Shown piece after piece: positions 43,526 to 50,700 of a DNA stretch of 64,000 bases. Each line of letters begins with the position of its first letter. The stretch's first letter is position 1. A program made the translations under genes and the position numbers. Origin of the DNA: a virus; the IMG/VR virus record IMGVR_UViG_3300032579_000010, positions 31,016-95,015 of that record. One strand, written 5' to 3'. A model generated the notes under the pieces. It was not told the origin of the DNA and searched no databases. It worked only from the letters and a program-made list of their open reading frames with translations.

Positions 43526-43903
43526 CTATTCGTAGAACCTAAGCCAAGTTTCGGGATTTTCAGGGTCTGGCTTGTATTCCTTTTCGGTCTTATGCTCGCA
43601 AAAAACGCAGATAACACTGAGGATTGAACCGTTATTGCTTGAAACTCGCCAGTCGTGGGAGCAAAGGTGTGGTAAAGCGCCCTTCACCACTTGTACGGTG
43701 CGGTGAGAGGCAGGGTCTTTGGTCAGATAGCCCTGATAGACCATTCGGTCTAGGTGCTCTTGGACAGTGGCTGGCGAACTGAGGTTAACGGCTTTAGCAA
43801 TCTCACGGACAGTCGGCCCACGCTGGTAGGTTTCCCAACACCACTGAATGTAGCGGTAAATGTTCTCGTATGTCTTTTGGCTGGTGCCTATCCGATAACG
43901 CAT
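43526..43903 (-). CDS. LexA-type winged-HTH protein with C-terminal Zn-finger-like domain (no S24 peptidase)
   Basis: GPTVREIAKAVNLSSPATVQEHLDRMVYQGYLTKDPASHRTV; CSHDW...CVFC. Confidence 0.8.
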   Translation of the reverse strand: MRYRIGTSQKTYENIYRYIQWCWETYQRGPTVREIAKAVNLSSPATVQEHLDRMVYQGYLTKDPASHRTVQVVKGALPHLCSHDWRVSSNNGSILSVICVFCEHKTEKEYKPDPENPETWLRFYE

Positions 43904-43921
43904 AAACCCCAGTATAGCAGG

Positions 43922-44446
43922 TTAGACTTCCATTACCCCGACGGTTCCGTCGCTACCGTCAAAGAACTGACCGCCAGTTCCCGTGGCATTGGTGGTCGAA
44001 GCGAAGGTGAAGGTGCTCGGACCAGTCACAGTGACAGCAAAGTCGCCGTTGAAGTTAGAGTTGCTGTTCCCGATAATCTGAACTATGTCGCCGTTCTCAA
44101 CGTTTTGGAATGGCGTAGAGGCGGTCACCGTAGCAGTCGTACCGTTGCCGACAATGTTGGTAATCCACACTGGATAGATTTCGCAGTAGGCGTTAATGGC
44201 ACCTGTGTACGTCTGAGTGGTGAAGGTGTCGCCCGGAAGCAGAAGTACGCCTGAGTCGTCGGTGGCAGTTCCGCCAAGCGACAGGTAAATGCGTGAAGCG
44301 TCCGAAGTGTTGCTGACCCAAGCCTGAAGGCGGTTGGGATTAGAGGCAAGTACGTTCGTGCTGGTGTTGGTGACCGTAGTCATCGAGTTTGTGACGTTGG
44401 CTACCGAGGCTTGGAAGTTTTCAGTGCGCTCTACATAACTTGCCAT
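43922..44446 (-). CDS. Beta-rich virion-type protein
   Basis: LASNPNRLQAWVSN...IYLSLG...GVLLLPG plus GDIVQIIG...FNGDFAVTVTGPSTFTF insert; own promoter and RBS. Confidence 0.55.
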   Translation of the reverse strand: MASYVERTENFQASVANVTNSMTTVTNTSTNVLASNPNRLQAWVSNTSDASRIYLSLGGTATDDSGVLLLPGDTFTTQTYTGAINAYCEIYPVWITNIVGNGTTATVTASTPFQNVENGDIVQIIGNSNSNFNGDFAVTVTGPSTFTFASTTNATGTGGQFFDGSDGTVGVMEV

Positions 44447-44510
44447 TGTGTTCTCCTTGTCGGGATTTAGAACTGAACCAATCCTACCCCACTATTTTTT
44501 CACTAGACGC

Positions 44511-44539
44511 TTGACAAGGGTTTTGTTTCCCACTAGACT
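44511..44539 (+). promoter_or_regulatory. Plus-strand sigma-A promoter
   Basis: TTGACA-17 nt-TAGACT, opposite to all genes. Confidence 0.65.
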
Positions 44540-44544
44540 CACGC

Positions 44545-44623
44545 TCGTTCTTGGGATTTGCTGGACACAACGCCTAGAACTCCTAAATCCCGTTCGCTGG
44601 AAGGCGGCGGGATTTAGTCTTTT
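44545..44623 (+). ncRNA. Candidate ~80 nt antisense small RNA
   Basis: Lies between the plus-strand promoter and a terminator; stem-loop displays an 18-mer complementary to the mRNA at 47677-47694. Confidence 0.5.
44583..44623 (+). terminator. Intrinsic terminator
   Basis: CTAAATCCCG...CGGGATTTAG stem followed by TCTTTT on the plus strand. Confidence 0.65.
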
Positions 44624-45104
44624 ACAGGTGAGCCTTGATTCGTTCCTTTTTGGGCAAGTGGTCGAGGATAGTCCTACCGTCTAGGTGGTCAATCTCGTGT
44701 TGGAAGATACAGGCTTCTATGCCTGTCGCTTCTTTTTCCACCACATTACCTTTTAGGTCAAGCCCTAAAAGGTGGACGGTTTCGTGACGGGTGATGTTAA
44801 ATCCCTTGCCCGGTATGGATAGGCAACCTTCGTGACCGACCTGAGCACCAGACCAGCCAACAATGCGTGGGTTAATAACAGCACGAAGCACTTTGTCGTT
44901 CATTTCATAGACAAAAATGCGCTGGCTGATGCCGACCTGATTAGCCGCTAAGCCAACTCCACCGAGGCGGTACATAACTTCGCCCATACGGGCAACAAGA
45001 GAAACCGTCTCGCCGTTGATTTCACCAATGTCCTTCGTTGGGATAGAAAGGCACGGGTCGGGGATAGTGCGTATGTCAAGCAAAATCGCTGAAGGTGTTG
45101 TCAT
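44622..45104 (-). CDS. def: Peptide deformylase
   Basis: GVGLAANQVG, EGCLSIP and QHEIDHLDG motifs; likely start MTTPS. Confidence 0.95.
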   Translation of the reverse strand: MTTPSAILLDIRTIPDPCLSIPTKDIGEINGETVSLVARMGEVMYRLGGVGLAANQVGISQRIFVYEMNDKVLRAVINPRIVGWSGAQVGHEGCLSIPGKGFNITRHETVHLLGLDLKGNVVEKEATGIEACIFQHEIDHLDGRTILDHLPKKERIKAHL

Positions 45105-45378
45105 AGTCTGAACGTATTTCCGCAAACAACGCTTCGACAAAATCGTTCAAGTCGGGGATTTCACTCTGGTGAGCAAAGAGGCGACCAGCGGCAGTGGCGA
45201 AGGCAAAAGAGAAAAGACTGCGTTCTAACTTCAGTTCGTCAATGGCGTTCTTTTGTTCCTTAGCGCCGATAGTCAGTAAGTCTTGCATTTTCACCATTGA
45301 GTTGAGCGAGGTTTGCGTCAACTCCAACTTCTCTTTCGTTGTAGCGAGTTCTTGCTTCAAATCTGATTTACGAGTCAT
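45076..45378 (-). CDS. Hypothetical coiled-coil protein
   Basis: Coupled ORF. Confidence 0.55.
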   Translation of the reverse strand: MTRKSDLKQELATTKEKLELTQTSLNSMVKMQDLLTIGAKEQKNAIDELKLERSLFSFAFATAAGRLFAHQSEIPDLNDFVEALFAEIRSDYDNTFSDFA

Positions 45379-45533
45379 TGGTCACGGTACTTTTCTGGCA
45401 CTTGCCCCTTATAGGGTGTGCCGTTGTATTCGGAAGTAAAAGGAAACTTTGCACCACAACTTGCGCAATACACAAAGGTCTTTGCCCCAGCGTTCATTAG
45501 CGTCCAGTTGTGGCGTGGGCACTTGCTAGCCAT
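45375..45533 (-). CDS. 52 aa Zn-ribbon-like microprotein (below ORF-track cutoff)
   Basis: MASKCPRHNW...YCASCGAKF; overlaps both neighbours. Confidence 0.55.
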   Translation of the reverse strand: MASKCPRHNWTLMNAGAKTFVYCASCGAKFPFTSEYNGTPYKGQVPEKYRDQ

Positions 45534-45723
45534 TTTCACTACTTTCTTCATCACTCAAAATGTGATTAACGATTGTATCCGCTAGGCGACGCAGTTGGTC
45601 TTTGGTGTCAAGGTCGGGCGTAATGAATACGCCGTAGTAACTACCGTCGTCGTCTTGATACCCCTTGTAGTACCACCCGTTGTGGTTCCAAAGGTCTACC
45701 AGTGTCTTTTGGTGATTATCCAC
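45526..45723 (-). CDS. Hypothetical protein
   Basis: Coupled ORF. Confidence 0.5.
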   Translation of the reverse strand: MDNHQKTLVDLWNHNGWYYKGYQDDDGSYYGVFITPDLDTKDQLRRLADTIVNHILSDEESSENG

Positions 45724-45877
45724 GACGGAATAGTTTGCGCTGTGCTGGCTCTGGCTTGGTCGTCTCTGCCTTTTCGTAAGCCTGTAGTTCGGGCGAGTTG
45801 TTACCTGCCGTTACTGGCTTATGGGCTTTGGCTTGCTCTTGTGCCTTCTGACGAAGGGCTGGTACACGCTTGGGCAT
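45716..45877 (-). CDS. 53 aa basic microprotein (below cutoff)
   Basis: TAATG-coupled to the methylase stop: MPKRVPALRQK...RKLFRRG*. Confidence 0.5.
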   Translation of the reverse strand: MPKRVPALRQKAQEQAKAHKPVTAGNNSPELQAYEKAETTKPEPAQRKLFRRG

Positions 45878-46956
45878 TACATAACCTCCACTTGGTTAAA
45901 CATTGGTGCGTCATCGCTAATCCTACACCGTGCGATTTCACCATACTCAGGGTTGAGTTCGGTTCCGATGTAGTTTCTCCCGTGACGCAAGGCGACAACG
46001 GCGACTGTTCCACTGCCCGTAAATGGGTCGAGAACAGTATCGCCTTCTGCTGAACCTGACAGGACGCTGGGTTCAACCAATGCTTCTGGCATCACGGCGA
46101 AGTGAGCGCCCTTAAACGGCTTGGTGGCGATAGTCCATACGTCACGCTTGTTGCGCTTCTCGTAAGACTTCTCAAGACCTGAGTGTGGCTGTAGTCCTGA
46201 GCCTTCATTGTGGTACTTTCCACCACTTCGGTCACGAGTTCCCCAGTCTTGCGCTGGTTCCTTGATTGCCTCGTTGTCGAAGTAATAGTGCTGAGACTTG
46301 CTTAACAAGAAAACGTATTCGTGGCTCTTGGTGCAACGGTCACGAACGCTCTCTGGCATTGGATTTGGCTTTGCCCAGATAATGTCTTGGCGCAAGTACC
46401 AACCGTCGGCTCGTAGGGCAAAGGCGAGCATCCATGGAATACCCATTAGGTCTTTTGGCTTCAGTCCTTGCGGTACTTTGCCTGAGGCGCTGGTGTGTTC
46501 CATATTGCGCTCGTCGTTTTCAGCACCCAAGTTTCCTGCCGGACCTTTTCCCGACCCTGAGTAACTGTCGCCAATGTTCAGCCAGACTGTTCCGTCGTCA
46601 GTAAGGATTCGGCGGATTTCCCTAAAGACCTCGACCATACTTTCGACATACTGCTCTGGTGATTCCTCTAAGCCGAGTTGCTCGTCAATGCGGACTGCGC
46701 CACACTTTGGACACTCAGACTTGTAGATAGCGTCACCAACGGTCAGCAATGGATTCTTGTGACCAGTAATGGTTGCGTCGCTTTTCTTGCTGTCTCGCTT
46801 GTGCGAACACTCTGGGTCACCACCTTCCCAATCGCCAGTTCCGTAGTCACGGAGTCCGTAATACGGCGGTGAGGTGATACACGTCCTTGCGGTTCCGTCG
46901 GGGATTTCGGCTAACCGTTTCCTAACGTCACCAATCAGTATCTTTGCTTCGGGCAT
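45877..46956 (-). CDS. Orphan N4-C/N6-A DNA methyltransferase (beta class)
   Basis: TSPPYY precedes VLDPFTGSGT; IIWAKPNPMPESV; no cognate endonuclease seen. Confidence 0.92.
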   Translation of the reverse strand: MPEAKILIGDVRKRLAEIPDGTARTCITSPPYYGLRDYGTGDWEGGDPECSHKRDSKKSDATITGHKNPLLTVGDAIYKSECPKCGAVRIDEQLGLEESPEQYVESMVEVFREIRRILTDDGTVWLNIGDSYSGSGKGPAGNLGAENDERNMEHTSASGKVPQGLKPKDLMGIPWMLAFALRADGWYLRQDIIWAKPNPMPESVRDRCTKSHEYVFLLSKSQHYYFDNEAIKEPAQDWGTRDRSGGKYHNEGSGLQPHSGLEKSYEKRNKRDVWTIATKPFKGAHFAVMPEALVEPSVLSGSAEGDTVLDPFTGSGTVAVVALRHGRNYIGTELNPEYGEIARCRISDDAPMFNQVEVM

Positions 46957-46992
46957 AAACCCTACGTTAGCAAAAATGGAAGGGCGAGTGTT

Positions 46993-47628
46993 TTATTCTC
47001 CTACACAACCGTCTTGCCACTCAGGGGCGAAACCGTGGTTGTAGTTGTAGAACCAAACTGCCACTGCTGATTGTTGCTGTGGCGTGGCTAAGTTCGCACT
47101 GGTCGTCTCAATACCAACGTGACTTGCGCCAAATGCCCATAGGTAAGGCAAGAACTGGTACAGACCCTGCGCACCTGAGTACTGGTTGGTGTCGTTGGGG
47201 TGATTTCGACTTTCCGCATAGCGAATACAGGCAAACGTGCTCTGAACGGACAACGGCAACGTGTGGGTTGGGTCGTCTGATGTTGGCTCATATGCCGTTG
47301 GGTCATACGTCCACGTCCACCAAAGAGGCTCACCGATTTGGTAAGTGCTCGTGGTGACCGAGTGTGGGCGGATAGTCTCACTAACCACAGGGCGACCCTT
47401 AATAGTCTCAGGCAGGTGCGCCAGCGTGGTCGTGGTTACCGACGAAGCAAACGGCATTGAGTCTGAGTAGGACGTTAGAAGTGCCTTTTGGTTAGCCGTC
47501 AAAACGGTAGTCGTCGTCGTTGGTGATACGACGGAACTCGCTATGGTCGAGGCTGGGGATACGGCGTGGGAAACCAAGCCGACTGTTGTGGCGAGGGCTA
47601 ATGTTGCCCCTCGCACTAGACCCCTCAC
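46993..47628 (-). CDS. Secreted Rpf/lysozyme-like lytic transglycosylase
   Basis: Signal peptide, Thr-rich linker, CIRYAESR...GAQGLYQF...W...ATPQQQSAVA...W..C. Confidence 0.85.
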   Translation of the reverse strand: MRGLVRGATLALATTVGLVSHAVSPASTIASSVVSPTTTTTVLTANQKALLTSYSDSMPFASSVTTTTLAHLPETIKGRPVVSETIRPHSVTTSTYQIGEPLWWTWTYDPTAYEPTSDDPTHTLPLSVQSTFACIRYAESRNHPNDTNQYSGAQGLYQFLPYLWAFGASHVGIETTSANLATPQQQSAVAVWFYNYNHGFAPEWQDGCVGE

Positions 47629-47687
47629 TGACCGTCCTTTAACGAGGGATAGGACGTACTGCTCTTAATGCTGACATTGCTGGACAC
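47625..47687 (-). CDS. Putative 20 aa leader peptide coupled to the Rpf-like gene
   Basis: AAAGGAGG RBS, GTG start, MSSNVSIKSSTSYPSLKDGQ*; stop overlaps the next GTG (GTGA). Confidence 0.45.
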   Translation of the reverse strand: MSSNVSIKSSTSYPSLKDGQ

Positions 47688-47722
47688 AACGCCTCCTTTG
47701 GTTACCCATTGGGGGATACAAA

Positions 47723-47752
47723 AGGTTACCCGAAGGTGACACCTAAAGCAAG
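47723..47752 (-). promoter_or_regulatory. Putative promoter of the leader/Rpf-like transcript
   Basis: TTGCTT-17 nt-TAACCT. Confidence 0.5.
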
Positions 47753-47754
47753 TG

Positions 47755-50700
47755 TTAGGCTGTTTCGCCTGATGAGGCTTTATTTTTGAGGTTTTCCTTC
47801 CCCATAACCAGCCATAAGAAATCGTCAGGCTCGGAACTGTCCACGTCGTGCCAGTTGCCGTCAGTGTCCATCCACTTGTCACCCTGAATCCACTGCGGAC
47901 CAAACATACCGTCAGCCCAGTAGCCGTCGGTAACGTTCTTTGGTGCTTCGTCTTGAGCCTTACTCATAAACCCTAGTTTAGCAGACTTAGTAACCTTTGT
48001 CCAACCTAGTGCTTCGGCAATGTTGGTAACCAAAGGCGTGTCAGGAACGAGTGGTGATTGGAAGGCGGCGTAGGACTCGGCAACAGTCTCCTGAAGGGTC
48101 GTCGAGCCGTATCTAGTGCTACCCAAAGAGTTAATGACACTCTGGGTAGAGGGAAGTAATGGGGTGTTTCCCCAGCCTTTACTAGATAGATACGAAGGAA
48201 GGTCGGCTCTAAGAATGTTTCCATCAGGCGTTGACATTCCGTAAGGAACATTTCTGCTGACGTAAAGTTTTATAGAAGAGTCTGTGACCTTATTCCAGTC
48301 TGGTGTTGTCACACCTAGTTCTTGACCTGTCTTGTCGAGGGCGGAATAAATCTGGTCAATGTGGTCTCCAGCAGCAAAGAAGTTGGAGTGACCTAGTTCG
48401 TGGATAACCGTGGACGCAATGCTTTGTTCGGGGTTGGCAATGAGGTCAGAAACCGACCATTCCTTTTGTAGGTCGCCTTCGGTCAAGTCCTTTTGGGTGC
48501 CGTCAGGGAAACCCTGCGACATATTGTTGGTAAAGAAATCTCTTACTTCGTCCGAAGCATTTTGCATACCTGCGATTTCACCAGAACGCCAGTAAACATC
48601 GCTAGCGACGGTAGACCATTTGCCCATTTGGATTGTGTTGGGGTTGGCAGGATTGACCCAAGCGCCAGTTGAGCGGTCAGCATCGTTGGCATGGGTGAAG
48701 TCAAGAGTCTTACCTTCACCGTACTTGTCAATAGCGTTCATAGCGGCTGTAGAAAGTCGTTCACCGGGTGCCCAACCTCGTGCACCCTTGGCGAAAATGA
48801 CGGTGTTGGTTCCCTTTGTGAAGTAAATCTTTCCACCAGACTCGCTCTTAGACCAGCCCTTTGGAACGGGTGCCTTCATGCGAGGCAAGGTCTTACGGGC
48901 TAACAGTGTTTTGGCTTCTTTGTAGCCTTCGCTCGTCCCCTTCCACGTTGCGTTGGAGTTTGGTACGCCACCGATTCCACCAGTCCATTGGTTTCCGTGG
49001 AACGAGTGACCAGAAACATCGCCTTTTGCTACGGGTTTTTCAGCATCAGCCTTGAACTGCAAGTCCATTGCTCGGTAGTACAACTCGGAAGCCTTGTCCT
49101 CGTCTCCTGCGAGTCGTGCTTCCTTGCTGGCTTGTCGCAGTTCCTCAGCCTTTTCAGCATTGGACTTCTCTGACTTTTCCTTTTTTGCTACGTCGAGGAC
49201 TGCTTTGATAACGGCAGTAACTAGTTCTACGGAGTTTTTCACCACAGACTTATTGACACCTGCGGAAGCAATAAGGGTATTGGCGTAGTCTTTTGCCTCA
49301 GCGTCAGTACAGGTGGCGATAGAGCCGAACTTGCTGATTAACTCAGGCGTGGCTGAGACAACTTGCCAGTATTTCGTAAGACTAAATGAGTGGGAGTCTG
49401 AGTAGTCCTTTAGTTCCTGAAGGGTTTGTTCGCCGTTTGCGTCAACGAACTTGTCATCACCGATTTGGAGTGCGTAGTGCTGAACAAAAACGGGTGGATA
49501 GTTCTTACCTTCTTCAGGAGTTATGGGGTCGCCAAGGGCGACAGGCTTACCGTTGGGGTAGATGTTCTGTAGAGCCTTCATAACCACGCCACAACCACCG
49601 AACAGTGGGCTGTTGTTGGGATAGCCAAGATACCCCTGCTTTGTCATAATCCTATTGAACGCATTAATGCTCTCAGACGACATAAAGGCGGATTTCACCT
49701 GTTCGCCTGTAAGCAATGCGCCTTCTGCCGAGCCGTTACCGCCTGTCCACTGATTGCCGTGGAACTCATGTCCTGCCACGTCACCCTTTTTCACCTCTTG
49801 GCTATTGAAGTGGGCGACCATTTTTTTTGCCCACGAGTAGCCAGCATCGCCACCCCAAGCGTCCCAAGCGACACGACCCGGCGACGGGTAACCGTTTTCA
49901 CCAGAACTAAAGCCTTCTGCCTTCTTGTCTGGTTGGTGGCGGTCAAAGTACGCCTTCATACGACGCAGCGTGTCCTCTGAGACACTGTGAGCGCTGGCTA
50001 GGTCGCTGGCTCGCTTGCGTCCAACGGCGGTGAATCCGTCTCCTGCCTTGCCGTCCTTTATCCAGTCCAGCGCACGTTGAGCGGCTTGTTGGACACCCTG
50101 CGGTGGTGTGAATGATTCTGAACTCTTAGCAACGTCTGAGACAGATTTCACTACTGAGGCAACCGAGTCAAGCGCACGGAACGCCTCAATCAACCTGTCA
50201 AGATTGTCAATGAGGTTTTGGAACTTGTCGTCCATTCCCAACTGGGCAAAGTGTGGTTCGAGGGTCGCCAGTTTGGGCTTCATAATCAGCAAAGCCTCTA
50301 GCGTCAAACCACGGTTCCAAAGGTATGCAATGAAGTCTGGCTGTGGCACTCGTGGGCGGAAGTTGCAAAGAGCGTGGTCAATACCGACAATGCGGTTTTC
50401 ACCTGTGTAAATCAAGTTCTTGGGTCGGCGGTCAGCGTTGGCTACGAGGTAGTCAAAAAGACGCAGATTGTCTCCCTGAGCCGTTTCTGGGTAGTATTCC
50501 TCGATTCCCAGTTCCTCGCCTGTCTTGCCCTCAATGAAGGGCATAATGACCGTTTTAGCCCCGTCTGAGGTGAATAGGCAGTCACGGATAGGTGCGTTAA
50601 TAACTTCGCCTACACGGGCAGACAGGTACTCCTGAGCGGAAAGTAGCGGAGCAGGATACAACCTGTGGGTTTTATTTCCGACCCAATCCTTCAGTTCCTT

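What the first reader, a model, noticed from the sequence alone, without database searches (positions are those of the whole stretch)
44511..47700. Candidate trans-acting antisense sRNA targeting a leader ORF of the Rpf-like muralytic gene
Seen: a plus-strand unit among minus-strand genes: TTGACA-17-TAGACT (44511-44539), a stem-loop, then a terminator with T tail (44583-44623). It contains TTGCTGGACACAACGCCT (44558-44575), identical to 47677-47694. On the minus-strand mRNA that site reads (AAAGG)AGGCGTTGTGTCCAGCAA, covering the end of the RBS and the GTG of a 20-codon leader whose stop overlaps the transglycosylase start. Established: hok/mok/Sok regulation silences a coupled leader ORF. Inference: the phage holds back a cell-wall hydrolase with a distant sRNA. 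Alternative: the 18-mer is a duplicated DNA operator or minus-strand leader.
Basis: partly seen in the sequence, partly recalled or inferred. Interest (0 to 1): 0.8.

Follow-up and report, generated by a model that had tools for sequence, protein, structure and literature searches.

The report
Phage antisense sRNA targeting lysin leader
An uncultured lake phage, and at least five related phage lineages, carry a small RNA gene on the otherwise silent strand; its loop is complementary to the ribosome-binding and start region of a short leader ORF that gates translation of a cell-wall-cutting (Rpf-like) enzyme, so this is a well-supported but still unexpressed candidate for RNA control of a phage muralytic gene.

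Summary

The 18-mer occurs exactly twice in the 95-kb phage genome, both times between minus-strand genes. Copy B (47677-47694) covers the end of the Shine-Dalgarno (SD) spacer, the GTG and codons 2-4 of a 20-codon leader. The leader's TGA overlaps the GTG of an Rpf-like transglycosylase. Promoter, 5'UTR, leader and overlap recur in about 12 related lineages.

Copy A (44558-44575) lies in the loop of a plus-strand unit:
- It has the only 10-of-12 sigma-70-like promoter match in the genome's intergenic DNA.
- It has one of only four strong intrinsic terminators.

Homologous units exist in five further lineages, always antisense and 1.4-3.1 kb downstream of the leader. They keep the promoter hexamers, show compensatory stem changes, contain many G.U pairs (so the fold is strand-specific), and have GNRA/UUCG loops. 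Each seed pairs over 12-18 nt with its own leader start. One lineage shows a compensatory C:G to G:C swap.

Against: no RNA evidence; a co-occurring strain changed B but not A; relatives without the unit still keep the leader.

Verdict: a new sRNA family, a variant of the Sok/c4/sar kind. Confidence is about 0.65.

The parts
44511..44539 (+). Promoter of the candidate sRNA: -35 TTGACA (44511-44516), 17-nt spacer, -10 TAGACT (44534-44539)
   Evidence: 10 of 12 matches; the only intergenic match of at least 10 of 12 in the 95-kb genome. Relatives keep TTGACG/TTGATT, a 16-17 nt spacer and TAGACT/TAGAAT/TAGGCT, mostly with an extended TGn, while the spacers diverge. In a co-occurring strain 4 of 5 changes fall outside the hexamers and the -10 becomes TAAACT.
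44546..44623 (+). Predicted sRNA body, about 78 nt. The 5' end is inferred from the -10 position and the 3' end from the T tail.
   Evidence: Fold -30.7 kcal/mol, z = -3.65. Covariance model R1 scores 80.8 bits here and 46-93 bits in five other lineages. BLAST to G004 aligns exactly 44534-44622 at 80% identity while the flanks do not align.
44547..44580 (+). Hairpin 1: stem GTTCTTGG/CCTAGAAC enclosing a large loop that carries the seed
   Evidence: Seven pairs, 95.9% of cells paired across 7 sequences, 2 pairs with compensatory change.
44558..44575 (+). Seed (copy A of the 18-mer), complementary to the leader TIR. The core TGGACACAACGC is invariant in 5 of 6 lineages; G004 has TGCACACAACGC.
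44583..44623 (+). Intrinsic terminator: 15-bp hairpin with a GGAA loop (44583-44617) and a TCTTTT tail. It abuts or overlaps the stop codon of def (44622-44624).
   Evidence: Hairpin energy is -21.1 kcal/mol on the + strand versus -16.8 on the - strand. Three compensatory pairs; loops are GNRA or UUCG in all lineages.
44622..45140 (-). Peptide deformylase gene, last gene of the cassette, convergent with the sRNA gene
   Evidence: Pfam PF01327, E = 3e-42. The same arrangement occurs in G004.
45877..46956 (-). N6/N4 DNA methylase gene inside the cassette. It is absent from the shorter cassette of G004.
   Evidence: Pfam PF01555, E = 5e-51.
46993..47628 (-). Rpf-like (transglycosylase-like) protein, 211 aa: N-terminal signal- or SAR-like segment, Thr/Ser/Pro linker, C-terminal domain with conserved Glu and a Cys pair
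   Evidence: PF06737 E = 0.003, below the curated cut-off. PHROG 3310 'transglycosylase' E = 2.5e-5. Distant homologues P0018-P0020 carry PF06737. Invariant C134, E139 and C208 in alignment A1. No hit to solved structures by sequence.
47625..47687 (-). Leader ORF, 20 codons (MSSNVSIKSSTSYPSLKDGQ). Its stop TGA overlaps the GTG of the Rpf-like gene (GTGA).
   Evidence: Leaders of 19-35 codons with a stop overlapping or just past the main start occur in 11 of 12 lineages; the leader is fused in frame in G003.
47677..47694 (-). Target site (copy B of the 18-mer): positions -7 to +11 relative to the G of the leader GTG
47692..47699 (-). Shine-Dalgarno AAAGGAGG of the leader
   Evidence: conserved in relatives.
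47723..47751 (-). Promoter of the leader/Rpf operon: -35 TTGCTT (47751-47746), 17 nt, -10 TAACCT (47728-47723). It is followed by the short hairpin CCCCCAATGGG.
   Evidence: Read. Relatives have TTGCCN-17-TAAACT with GTCAC in the spacer.

Best explanation
The window carries a small, independently transcribed plus-strand RNA gene: promoter 44511-44539, RNA about 44546-44623, two hairpins, and an intrinsic terminator shared tail-to-tail with the def gene.

The large loop of hairpin 1 is an antisense seed for the translation-initiation region (TIR) of a 20-codon leader ORF 3.1 kb away, at the head of the same minus-strand cassette. The cassette reads: promoter, leader, Rpf-like transglycosylase, methylase, small ORFs, def.

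Proposed mechanism:
- The seed pairs with positions -7 to +11 of the leader in this phage; -5 to +7 is the conserved minimum across lineages.
- Pairing would block 30S binding to the leader.
- The Rpf-like ORF starts at a GTG that overlaps the leader's TGA, and its own SD lies inside the leader. Leader silencing should therefore hold back the muralytic enzyme by loss of translational coupling.
- mRNA decay or polarity on the downstream genes may follow.

Shown: the sequence features, their conservation, structural covariation, strand specificity, and seed/target complementarity in six lineages.

Inferred: transcription of the RNA, the sign of regulation (repression), and dependence of the Rpf-like ORF on leader translation.
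For: 1. The unit's signals are rare in this genome. The promoter is the sole intergenic match of at least 10 of 12 in 190 kb of two-strand sequence. The hairpin is one of four strong terminator-like hairpins, and the other three sit at plausible operon ends.

2. Homologous units were found by BLAST and by covariance model R1 in G004, G005, G006, the L052/L061/G013 type and L058. All lie on the strand opposite to the genes, 1.4-3.1 kb downstream of the leader and convergent with the last cassette gene.

3. Promoter hexamers and 16-17-nt spacing are kept while the spacer sequence diverges. An extended -10 TGn is present in 5 of 6 lineages.

4. Structure on 7 sequences:
- 92.9% of cells are paired.
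- 5 of 16 pairs show compensatory change.
- 0 of 500 shuffles reach the observed covariation score, and the slid controls pair only 36-58%.
- 14 of 112 cells are G.U, which would be A.C on the other strand.
- The MFE is 3.8-8.8 kcal/mol better on the + strand in four units.
- Terminator loops are GGAA, GAAA, GAAA, GCAA, GAAA and UUCG.

5. The seed loop UG(G/C)ACACAACGC is invariant while the stems and linker vary. Contiguous Watson-Crick runs with the phage's own TIR are 18, 12, 13, 14, 14 and 12 nt.

6. Covariation between seed and target:
- G004 has leader codon 2 TGC, and its seed has GCA where all others have TCC and GGA.
- Position +8 is G:C in the window and L052, and A:U in G006.
- G004 adds a second 8-bp block, GGUCGUCC with GGACGACC.
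- The cognate duplex is clearly the best for G004 and for G005/G006.

7. Phylogenetic pattern. All lineages with the unit have a leader beginning GUG-U(C/G)C-A. Lineages where no unit was found have other second codons.

8. Conservation.
- The sRNA body is 80% identical to G004, although the Rpf-like proteins are only about 57% identical.
- In a co-occurring strain the block 44537-44581 is unchanged while flanking DNA is about 85% identical or unalignable.

9. The target gene is plausibly dangerous to express early: it is a secreted or anchored Rpf-like transglycosylase.
Against: - No expression evidence. Two lake metatranscriptome runs, available only as unstranded low-depth contigs, gave contigs over the leader but none over 44445-45073. 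That is uninformative either way.
- Near-strain comparison shows no co-variation. The abundant variant strain has B changed at 47680 (leader Ser3 to Asn), while A is unchanged over 44476-44581. This leaves a C.A mismatch at +8 and 14 contiguous pairs (the L021 sequence is).
- Because A and B are direct repeats in DNA, 'the same change in both copies' is also what gene conversion or a common sequence-specific binding factor would produce.
- Only one clean internal compensatory position exists. Cognate pairing is not the best for the window, L052 or L058 sRNAs.
- The unit is not needed for the leader system. G002, G003 and G009 (56-87% complete contigs) keep the promoter, leader and overlap but gave no unit.
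- The 5' end and the length are predictions only.
- Dependence of the Rpf-like ORF on leader translation is inferred. A consensus anti-SD hairpin was not supported by covariation.
Confidence: 0.65

Rival explanations
1. The plus-strand sRNA gene is real, but silencing the leader is not its main job. It might act on host mRNAs. It might serve chiefly as a convergent transcription unit whose terminator and transcription stop read-through from the Rpf-def cassette into the next module (174-aa gene, LexA-like gene). On this reading the complementarity to the leader is a leftover of its origin by duplication of the TIR.
For: - The unit always sits tail-to-tail with the last cassette gene, and its hairpin overlaps that gene's stop.
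- Copy A resembles TIR sequence beyond what pairing needs. In G004 it reads like GGTCGTCC..GCGTTGTGTGCA with the SD replaced. In the window it matches L011's leader 19 of 21.
- Lineages without the unit keep the leader.
- The near strain tolerates a mismatch.
Against: - The seed, not the rest of the loop, is the invariant part of the RNA.
- The only seed variant (G004) matches the only TIR variant at that position.
- A relic would be expected to decay over the divergence seen, about 50-57% amino-acid identity of neighbouring proteins.
- No other site in the phage genome matches the seed within 4 of 18 mismatches in the antisense sense.
Confidence: 0.15
2. The two copies are binding sites for one sequence-specific protein, and the RNA pairing is incidental. 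The protein could bind DNA, for example the LexA-like winged-helix protein encoded next door. It could instead be an RNA-binding translational repressor acting on the minus-strand transcript at both places.
For: - Both copies have the same orientation and lie in non-coding DNA. Identical changes in both copies (G004) fit a shared recognition site equally well.
- A LexA_DNA_bind protein is encoded immediately downstream of the unit in G004 and one gene further in the window.
Against: - The site is not palindromic; only TTG-N7-CAA is symmetric (read).
- There are only two copies.
- It does not explain the conserved + strand promoter, the terminator with T tail, the G.U-rich strand-specific helices or the GNRA loops around copy A.
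- On the minus strand copy A has no conserved SD, so it is not a TIR.
Confidence: 0.07
3. Copy A is a non-functional scar: a stranded fragment of a duplicated or recombined leader left when the cassette was inserted or exchanged. The promoter-like and terminator-like features would then be fortuitous.
For: - The genome is mosaic, and other notes on it describe relic leaders and insertion scars.
- Divergence from a co-occurring strain jumps from about 95-98% to about 80-87% identity close to both 18-mers.
- On the minus strand copy A opens a mini-ORF whose TGA overlaps a GTG, loosely like copy B.
Against: - Flank similarity between A and B is not significant (p about 0.18).
- The unit is conserved as a structured element with compensatory changes in six lineages, which a scar would not be.
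- The minus-strand mini-ORF varies from 9 to 59 codons.
Confidence: 0.05
4. Copy A belongs to the minus-strand mRNA as a second leader or a decoy TIR upstream of the 174-aa gene. It would share the initiation region of the Rpf leader so that both genes are co-regulated at translation.
For: - On the minus strand copy A reads GGAG-N11-GTG TCC AGC AAA and could start a 9-codon ORF.
- Its continuation resembles the L011 leader.
Against: - The SD is not conserved: G004 and G005 lack it.
- ORF length is not conserved, and in relatives the ORF runs through the promoter and hairpins.
- The downstream gene differs between lineages: 174-aa protein in the window, LexA-like protein in G004.
- The helices carry G.U pairs that become A.C on this strand.
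Confidence: 0.03

Closest known systems
hok/mok/Sok of plasmid R1 (type I toxin-antitoxin). Details are from my own knowledge.
   Same: A small antisense RNA with its own strong promoter pairs with the TIR of a leader ORF. The leader's translation is needed, through overlap and coupling, for translation of the harmful downstream gene.
   Different: - Sok is cis-encoded and overlaps its target; here the RNA gene lies 1.4-3.1 kb from the target.
- mok overlaps most of hok; here only the stop and start overlap.
- The gated product here is a 211-aa secreted Rpf-like transglycosylase, not a small membrane toxin.
- No fbi/tac long-range mRNA fold or 3' processing was looked for.
- There is no sequence or Rfam relationship.
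c4 antisense RNA and the icd-ant operon of phages P1/P7. The review PMC12197685 covers c4/ant; the icd coupling detail is from my own knowledge.
   Same: - A phage-encoded ~77-nt RNA acts at a distance within the phage genome.
- It masks the ribosome-binding site of a small upstream ORF that is translationally coupled to the regulated gene.
- Natural seed/target variants define specificity (P1 versus P7), as the G004 variant might here.
- Two pairing blocks, as in G004.
   Different: - c4 is cut out of the same transcript, on the same strand, upstream of its target; complementarity there comes from inverted repeats.
- Here the RNA has its own promoter on the opposite strand at the far end of the operon, and complementarity comes from direct repeats.
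- The target there is an antirepressor, not a muralytic enzyme.
sar RNA of phage P22 and OOP RNA of lambda (PMC12197685)
   Same: Short (68-77 nt) phage antisense RNAs with their own promoter and intrinsic terminator, lying between co-oriented genes on the opposite strand. sar blocks a TIR.
   Different: Both overlap their targets (cis-antisense); the present RNA does not overlap the gene it matches.
PAK_P4as15, an antisense RNA over the endolysin gene of Pseudomonas phage PAK_P4 (PMC12197685)
   Same: A proposed RNA brake on a phage cell-wall hydrolase.
   Different: It is ~550 nt and cis-encoded, with no leader ORF, and it is not conserved in the sister phage. Here the RNA is ~78 nt, trans-encoded, acts through a leader, and is conserved in six lineages.

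Membership tests
Independently transcribed, base-pairing bacterial/phage sRNA gene (generic class) | Own promoter | tested here: met
   10 of 12 sigma-70-like match, unique among intergenic DNA of the genome. Hexamers and spacing are conserved in 6 lineages while the spacers diverge. This is sequence evidence only.
Independently transcribed, base-pairing bacterial/phage sRNA gene (generic class) | Rho-independent terminator on the same strand | tested here: met
   Hairpin of -21 kcal/mol plus a T tail. Compensatory pairs, G.U pairs and GNRA/UUCG loops are specific to this strand.
Independently transcribed, base-pairing bacterial/phage sRNA gene (generic class) | Conserved, accessible seed complementary to a target TIR | tested here: met
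   An invariant 12-nt core lies in the loop of hairpin 1. Watson-Crick runs with the phage's own leader TIR are 12-18 nt in all 6 lineages.
Independently transcribed, base-pairing bacterial/phage sRNA gene (generic class) | Detectable transcript of the predicted size and strand | tested here: inconclusive
   Only unstranded, low-depth metatranscriptome contigs could be laid, and none covers 44445-45073.
hok/mok/Sok-type regulation | Antisense RNA encoded opposite to, and overlapping, the target 5' region | tested here: not met
   The sRNA gene at 44546-44623 lies 3.1 kb from the target at 47677-47694.
hok/mok/Sok-type regulation | Leader ORF whose translation is coupled to the downstream gene | tested here: inconclusive
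   A stop/start overlap (GTGA, ATGA, TTGA or an 8-nt overlap) with the SD inside the leader occurs in 11 of 12 lineages. Coupling itself was not tested, and the anti-SD hairpin is not supported by covariation.
hok/mok/Sok-type regulation | Gated gene is a small membrane toxin | tested here: not met
   The gated gene is a 211-aa Rpf-like transglycosylase.
P1/P7 c4-icd-ant type | RNA processed from the same transcript, upstream of its target | tested here: not met
   The RNA is on the opposite strand, has its own promoter, and lies downstream of the target operon.
P1/P7 c4-icd-ant type | Pairing masks the RBS of a small ORF coupled to the regulated gene | tested here: met
   Complementarity spans -7 to +11 of the leader. 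It is met at the level of sequence only.
Any described RNA family (Rfam 15) | Match to a curated covariance model | tested here: not met
   No hit at gathering score in the window. No hit at E <= 1 in 44400-44700.
Rpf / transglycosylase-like domain (PF06737), for the target gene | Profile match above the curated threshold | tested here: inconclusive
   18.7 bits against a cut-off of 27. PHROG 3310 gives E = 2.5e-5. Distant homologues carry PF06737. G004's copy also touches the SLT family.
Rpf / transglycosylase-like domain (PF06737), for the target gene | Conserved catalytic Glu and a disulfide Cys pair | tested here: met
   E139, C134 and C208 are invariant in 15 homologues. Their roles are inferred from knowledge of Rpf domains.

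The most novel reading that the evidence does not exclude
The seed/leader pair could work as a specificity ('immunity') code between co-occurring lake phages, as c4 does for P1 and P7. A resident or first-infecting phage would make the sRNA and silence the muralytic cassette of incoming relatives that share its leader type. Variants such as G004 (C:G swapped to G:C) or the hap2 leader (Ser3Asn) would escape. On this reading the whole promoter-leader-Rpf...def-terminator-sRNA block is a self-regulating, exchangeable, moron-like cassette, with the RNA acting as an antitoxin-like brake on a wall-cutting enzyme.
Probability: 0.12. Interest if true: 0.75.

Novelty: new variant of a known kind. Interest (0 to 1): 0.6.

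Why it matters
Few phage sRNAs are known to regulate the phage's own genes, and most of those are cis-antisense RNAs from E. coli or Salmonella model phages (review PMC12197685).

This would be a conserved, trans-encoded sRNA family in uncultured freshwater phages, probably of Actinobacteria, where Hfq-independent RNA regulation is poorly charted. It has a defined single target: the start of a leader ORF that gates a secreted Rpf-like cell-wall enzyme.

The case links three themes: timing of muralytic activity, leader-peptide coupling, and RNA control. It also comes with natural seed/target variants that make a clean compensatory test possible in a surrogate host.

Independently of the sRNA, the conserved promoter-leader-overlap architecture in front of phage Rpf-like genes is a new annotated feature for about 12 lineages.

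Tried and rejected
- **Phage record searches.** Megablast and tblastn of the region and of the Rpf-like protein against the 50,697 phage records gave no match.
- **Relatives of the 174-aa gene.** None were found in viral or metagenome contigs.
- **Exact 18-mer.** It has no match in viral contigs.
- **First look for a second TIR copy in relatives.** A search allowing up to 3 mismatches over 18-24 nt found nothing and wrongly suggested the unit was lineage-specific. BLAST with the whole unit then found it.
- **'A is a decayed copy of leader plus gene start'.** Flank similarity is not significant. The GTGAGTCTAGTG resemblance turned out to be the reverse complement of the sRNA -10 region.
- **A putative second Rpf paralogue in L002.** It is the LexA-like gene, not a paralogue.
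- **Genome-wide motif idea** (CACTAGAC, CTTGACAAG and others). No enrichment was found.
- **Consensus anti-SD hairpin inside the leader.** It has no covariation support.
- **Weak model hits.** The R1 hits in G003 and G007 are an ordinary sense-strand terminator or the trivial antisense of the TIR itself.
- **Metatranscriptome contigs.** There is no cover over the sRNA locus, which is no evidence either way.
- **Last two viral-contig scans.** They gave no further lineages that include a TIR.
- **Holin search.** No holin-like small ORF was seen in the cassette by hydropathy, so 'lysis cassette' is not claimed.

Full report
**Setting.** The window is bases 31016-95015 of a 95,015-bp virus record of about 51% G+C. 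Nearly all genes lie on the minus strand. The one real plus-strand block (AAA_24, Mu Gam-like) lies outside the window. Public runs that hold the sequence are lake-water metagenomes. No phage record resembles it.

**The observation.**
- TTGACA-17-TAGACT lies at 44511-44539.
- A two-hairpin fold follows, with a TCTTTT tail ending at 44623. The fold is -30.7 kcal/mol, z = -3.65.
- The 18-mer TTGCTGGACACAACGCCT occurs at 44558-44575 and 47677-47694 and nowhere else in the genome.
- On the minus strand, copy B reads AAAGGAGG-CGTT-GTG. It opens a 20-codon ORF whose TGA overlaps the GTG of the 211-aa ORF 46993-47628.

That ORF is Rpf-like. It gives weak PF06737 and PHROG 3310 'transglycosylase' hits. 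Its distant homologues carry PF06737. A Glu and a Cys pair are invariant in 15 homologues. It has an N-terminal Ala/Gly/Thr-rich hydrophobic segment.

**Is it chance?** An exact 18-mer repeat alone is not unique here. Two other 18-mers and six 17-mers exist, all direct and all in coding DNA. What sets this pair apart:
- Both copies fall in the 7.5% of the genome that is intergenic.
- The promoter beside copy A is the only intergenic site among four genome-wide matches of at least 10 of 12.
- The hairpin is one of only four terminator-like hairpins at or below -20 kcal/mol. The other three sit at a convergent gene junction and after an early block.

**The target side (B) is a conserved regulatory module.** Relatives were found through the Rpf-like protein and through two DNA patterns from the 5'UTR and TIR. 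They show the following, in about 12 lineages:
- a minus-strand promoter TTGCYN-17-TAAACT (window: TTGCTT-17-TAACCT, 47751-47723);
- a short hairpin (CCCCCAATGGG or CCTCG..CGAGG);
- a strong SD;
- a leader of 19-35 codons, whose stop overlaps or lies just past the start of the Rpf-like ORF (GTGA, ATGA, TTGA or an 8-nt overlap) in 11 lineages; in G003 the leader is fused in frame.

Leader peptides share MSNN..(V/I)SR at the start and S(Y/C)(P/S)S..K(A/D)G at the end. The second patch coincides with the SD of the main ORF. In a closely related strain the leader took 7 non-synonymous changes and 1 synonymous change while keeping frame, length and overlap. The act of translation, rather than the peptide, is therefore probably what matters. 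This is an inference.

**The sRNA side (A) is also conserved.** This is the key new result. My first searches for a second TIR copy in relatives failed. BLAST with the whole unit then hit G004 at 80% identity over exactly 44534-44622. It also gave 20-nt hits in G005 and G006. A covariance model built from four units then found units in the L052/L061/G013 type and in L058. In all six lineages:
- The unit lies on the strand opposite to the genes, 1.4-3.1 kb downstream of the leader.
- It is convergent with the last gene of the cassette. That gene is def in the window and in G004.
- The promoter is TTGACA/TTGACG/TTGATT, 16-17 nt, TAGACT/TAGAAT/TAGGCT. It usually has an extended TGn, and the spacers are unrelated.

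Structure statistics on the 7-sequence alignment:

| Measure | Result |
|---|---|
| Cells paired | 92.9% |
| Pairs with compensatory change | 5 of 16 |
| Shuffles reaching the covariation score | 0 of 500 |
| Pairing in slid controls | 36-58% |
| G.U cells | 14 of 112 |

One pair is U.G in 5 of 7 sequences, and these would be A.C mismatches on the minus strand. The plus-strand fold is 3.8-8.8 kcal/mol more stable in four units. The terminator loops are GNRA or UUCG. The fold therefore belongs to the plus strand. Rfam has nothing like it.

**Seed and target.** The loop core UG(G/C)ACACAACGC is invariant while the rest of the loop, the stems and the linker vary. Contiguous Watson-Crick runs with each phage's own leader:

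| Lineage | Run (nt) |
|---|---|
| window | 18 |
| G004 | 12 (plus one G.U and a second 8-bp block) |
| G005 | 13 |
| G006 | 14 |
| L052/L061 | 14 |
| L058 | 12 |

- The shared minimum is -5 to +7 around the GUG.
- The only variant inside this core is matched. G004's leader has UGC as codon 2, and its seed has GCA where the others have UCC and GGA.
- Position +8 is G:C (window, L052) or A:U (G006), but it is mismatched in four cases.
- Cognate duplexes are clearly the best for G004 and for G005/G006, not for the others.
- Lineages with no unit found (G001-G003, L008, G009, G011) have different second codons. Some of those contigs are incomplete.

**Population data.** Two DNA runs hold the window's strain plus an abundant variant. 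That variant is the strain of contig G008/L021.
- The variant keeps 44537-44581 unchanged, and so the whole of copy A.
- It keeps TTGACA and turns TAGACT into TAAACT.
- Its copy B has 47680 C>T.

So there is no co-variation at this short distance. One terminal mismatch is tolerated, leaving 14 contiguous pairs. Both non-coding islands are far better conserved than the flanking coding DNA.

RNA contigs cover the leader region but not the sRNA locus. They are unstranded and thin, so they decide nothing.

**Rivals.**
- *Non-functional duplication scar.* It is contradicted by conservation with compensatory change and by insignificant flank similarity.
- *Minus-strand leader or decoy TIR.* It lacks a conserved SD and has ORFs of 9 to 59 codons.
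- *Common protein-binding site.* It would explain identical changes in both copies but not the promoter, terminator and strand-specific helices.
- *Real sRNA with another main role* (host targets, or blocking read-through at the cassette end). This cannot be excluded and takes most of the remaining probability.

**Comparison and verdict.** Functionally this resembles hok/mok/Sok and, more closely, P1/P7 c4-icd-ant: an RNA that masks the RBS of a small ORF coupled to the regulated gene. It is not a member of either family. The RNA is neither cis-overlapping nor co-transcribed with its target, and it belongs to no described RNA family.

I rate it a new variant of a known kind. Interest is 0.6. 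Confidence is 0.65 that it is a trans-acting antisense sRNA of the leader.

Noticed in passing
window 47705-47751 (-); L001, L002, L008, L011, L021, L025, L027, L030, L031, L052, L055, L057, L058: A conserved sigma-70-like promoter (TTGCYN-17-TAAACT with GTCAC in the spacer) and a short 5'UTR hairpin precede the leader of the Rpf-like gene in about 12 phage lineages. The cassette therefore has its own host-type promoter, directly after the head-gene block.
   Followed up: partly
L003 5925-6060 (G003): In one relative the leader is fused in frame to the Rpf-like ORF (MTSNPVVMRS...), with no stop/start overlap. No sRNA unit was found in that contig.
   Followed up: partly
window 43900-47900 (read laying): Co-occurring strains are sharply mosaic here. 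Both non-coding islands (44443-44581 and 47681-47900) are 95-98% identical. The coding DNA between and beside them is 80-87% identical or unalignable, as if the cassette were exchanged by recombination at its regulatory ends.
   Followed up: partly
L041 1402-1438 (+) and 1013-1261 (+) (G005; the same in G006): A second strong plus-strand terminator sits immediately upstream of the sRNA promoter, after a possible 82-codon plus-strand ORF. This falls within a ~670-bp stretch without a clear minus-strand gene.
   Followed up: no
whole genome, e.g. window 1071/1430, and genome 5882 / window 52197: All 15 exact repeats of at least 16 nt outside the collagen-like genes are direct and none is inverted. 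Two further exact 18-mers exist in coding DNA and are unexplained.
   Followed up: no
window 43526-43903 (-); L025 7426-7914 (-): A LexA_DNA_bind-type winged-helix protein with a Cys-rich C-terminus is encoded next to the sRNA locus: adjacent in G004, one gene away in the window. No LexA-box-like palindrome was seen nearby.
   Followed up: no
window 44487-44498 (+) and L003 5794-5805: The 12-mer CCCCACTATTTT is shared. In the window it lies just upstream of the sRNA promoter. In G003 it lies in the intergenic region upstream of the Rpf leader, in the opposite orientation relative to the genes. It may be chance (BLAST E about 0.5).
   Followed up: no
L004-L006 (downstream of def in G001-G003): In relatives without the sRNA unit, def is followed after ~50 bp by a gene whose ATG lies 6 nt after a TAGAAT box. 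This suggests a leaderless mRNA, as is common in Actinobacteria. It is a hint to the host group, together with the Rpf-like domain.
   Followed up: no
window 60121 (-) and genome 9554-9597: Canonical strong terminators: one on the minus strand after the first gene block of the window, and one bidirectional at the convergent junction outside the window.
   Followed up: no
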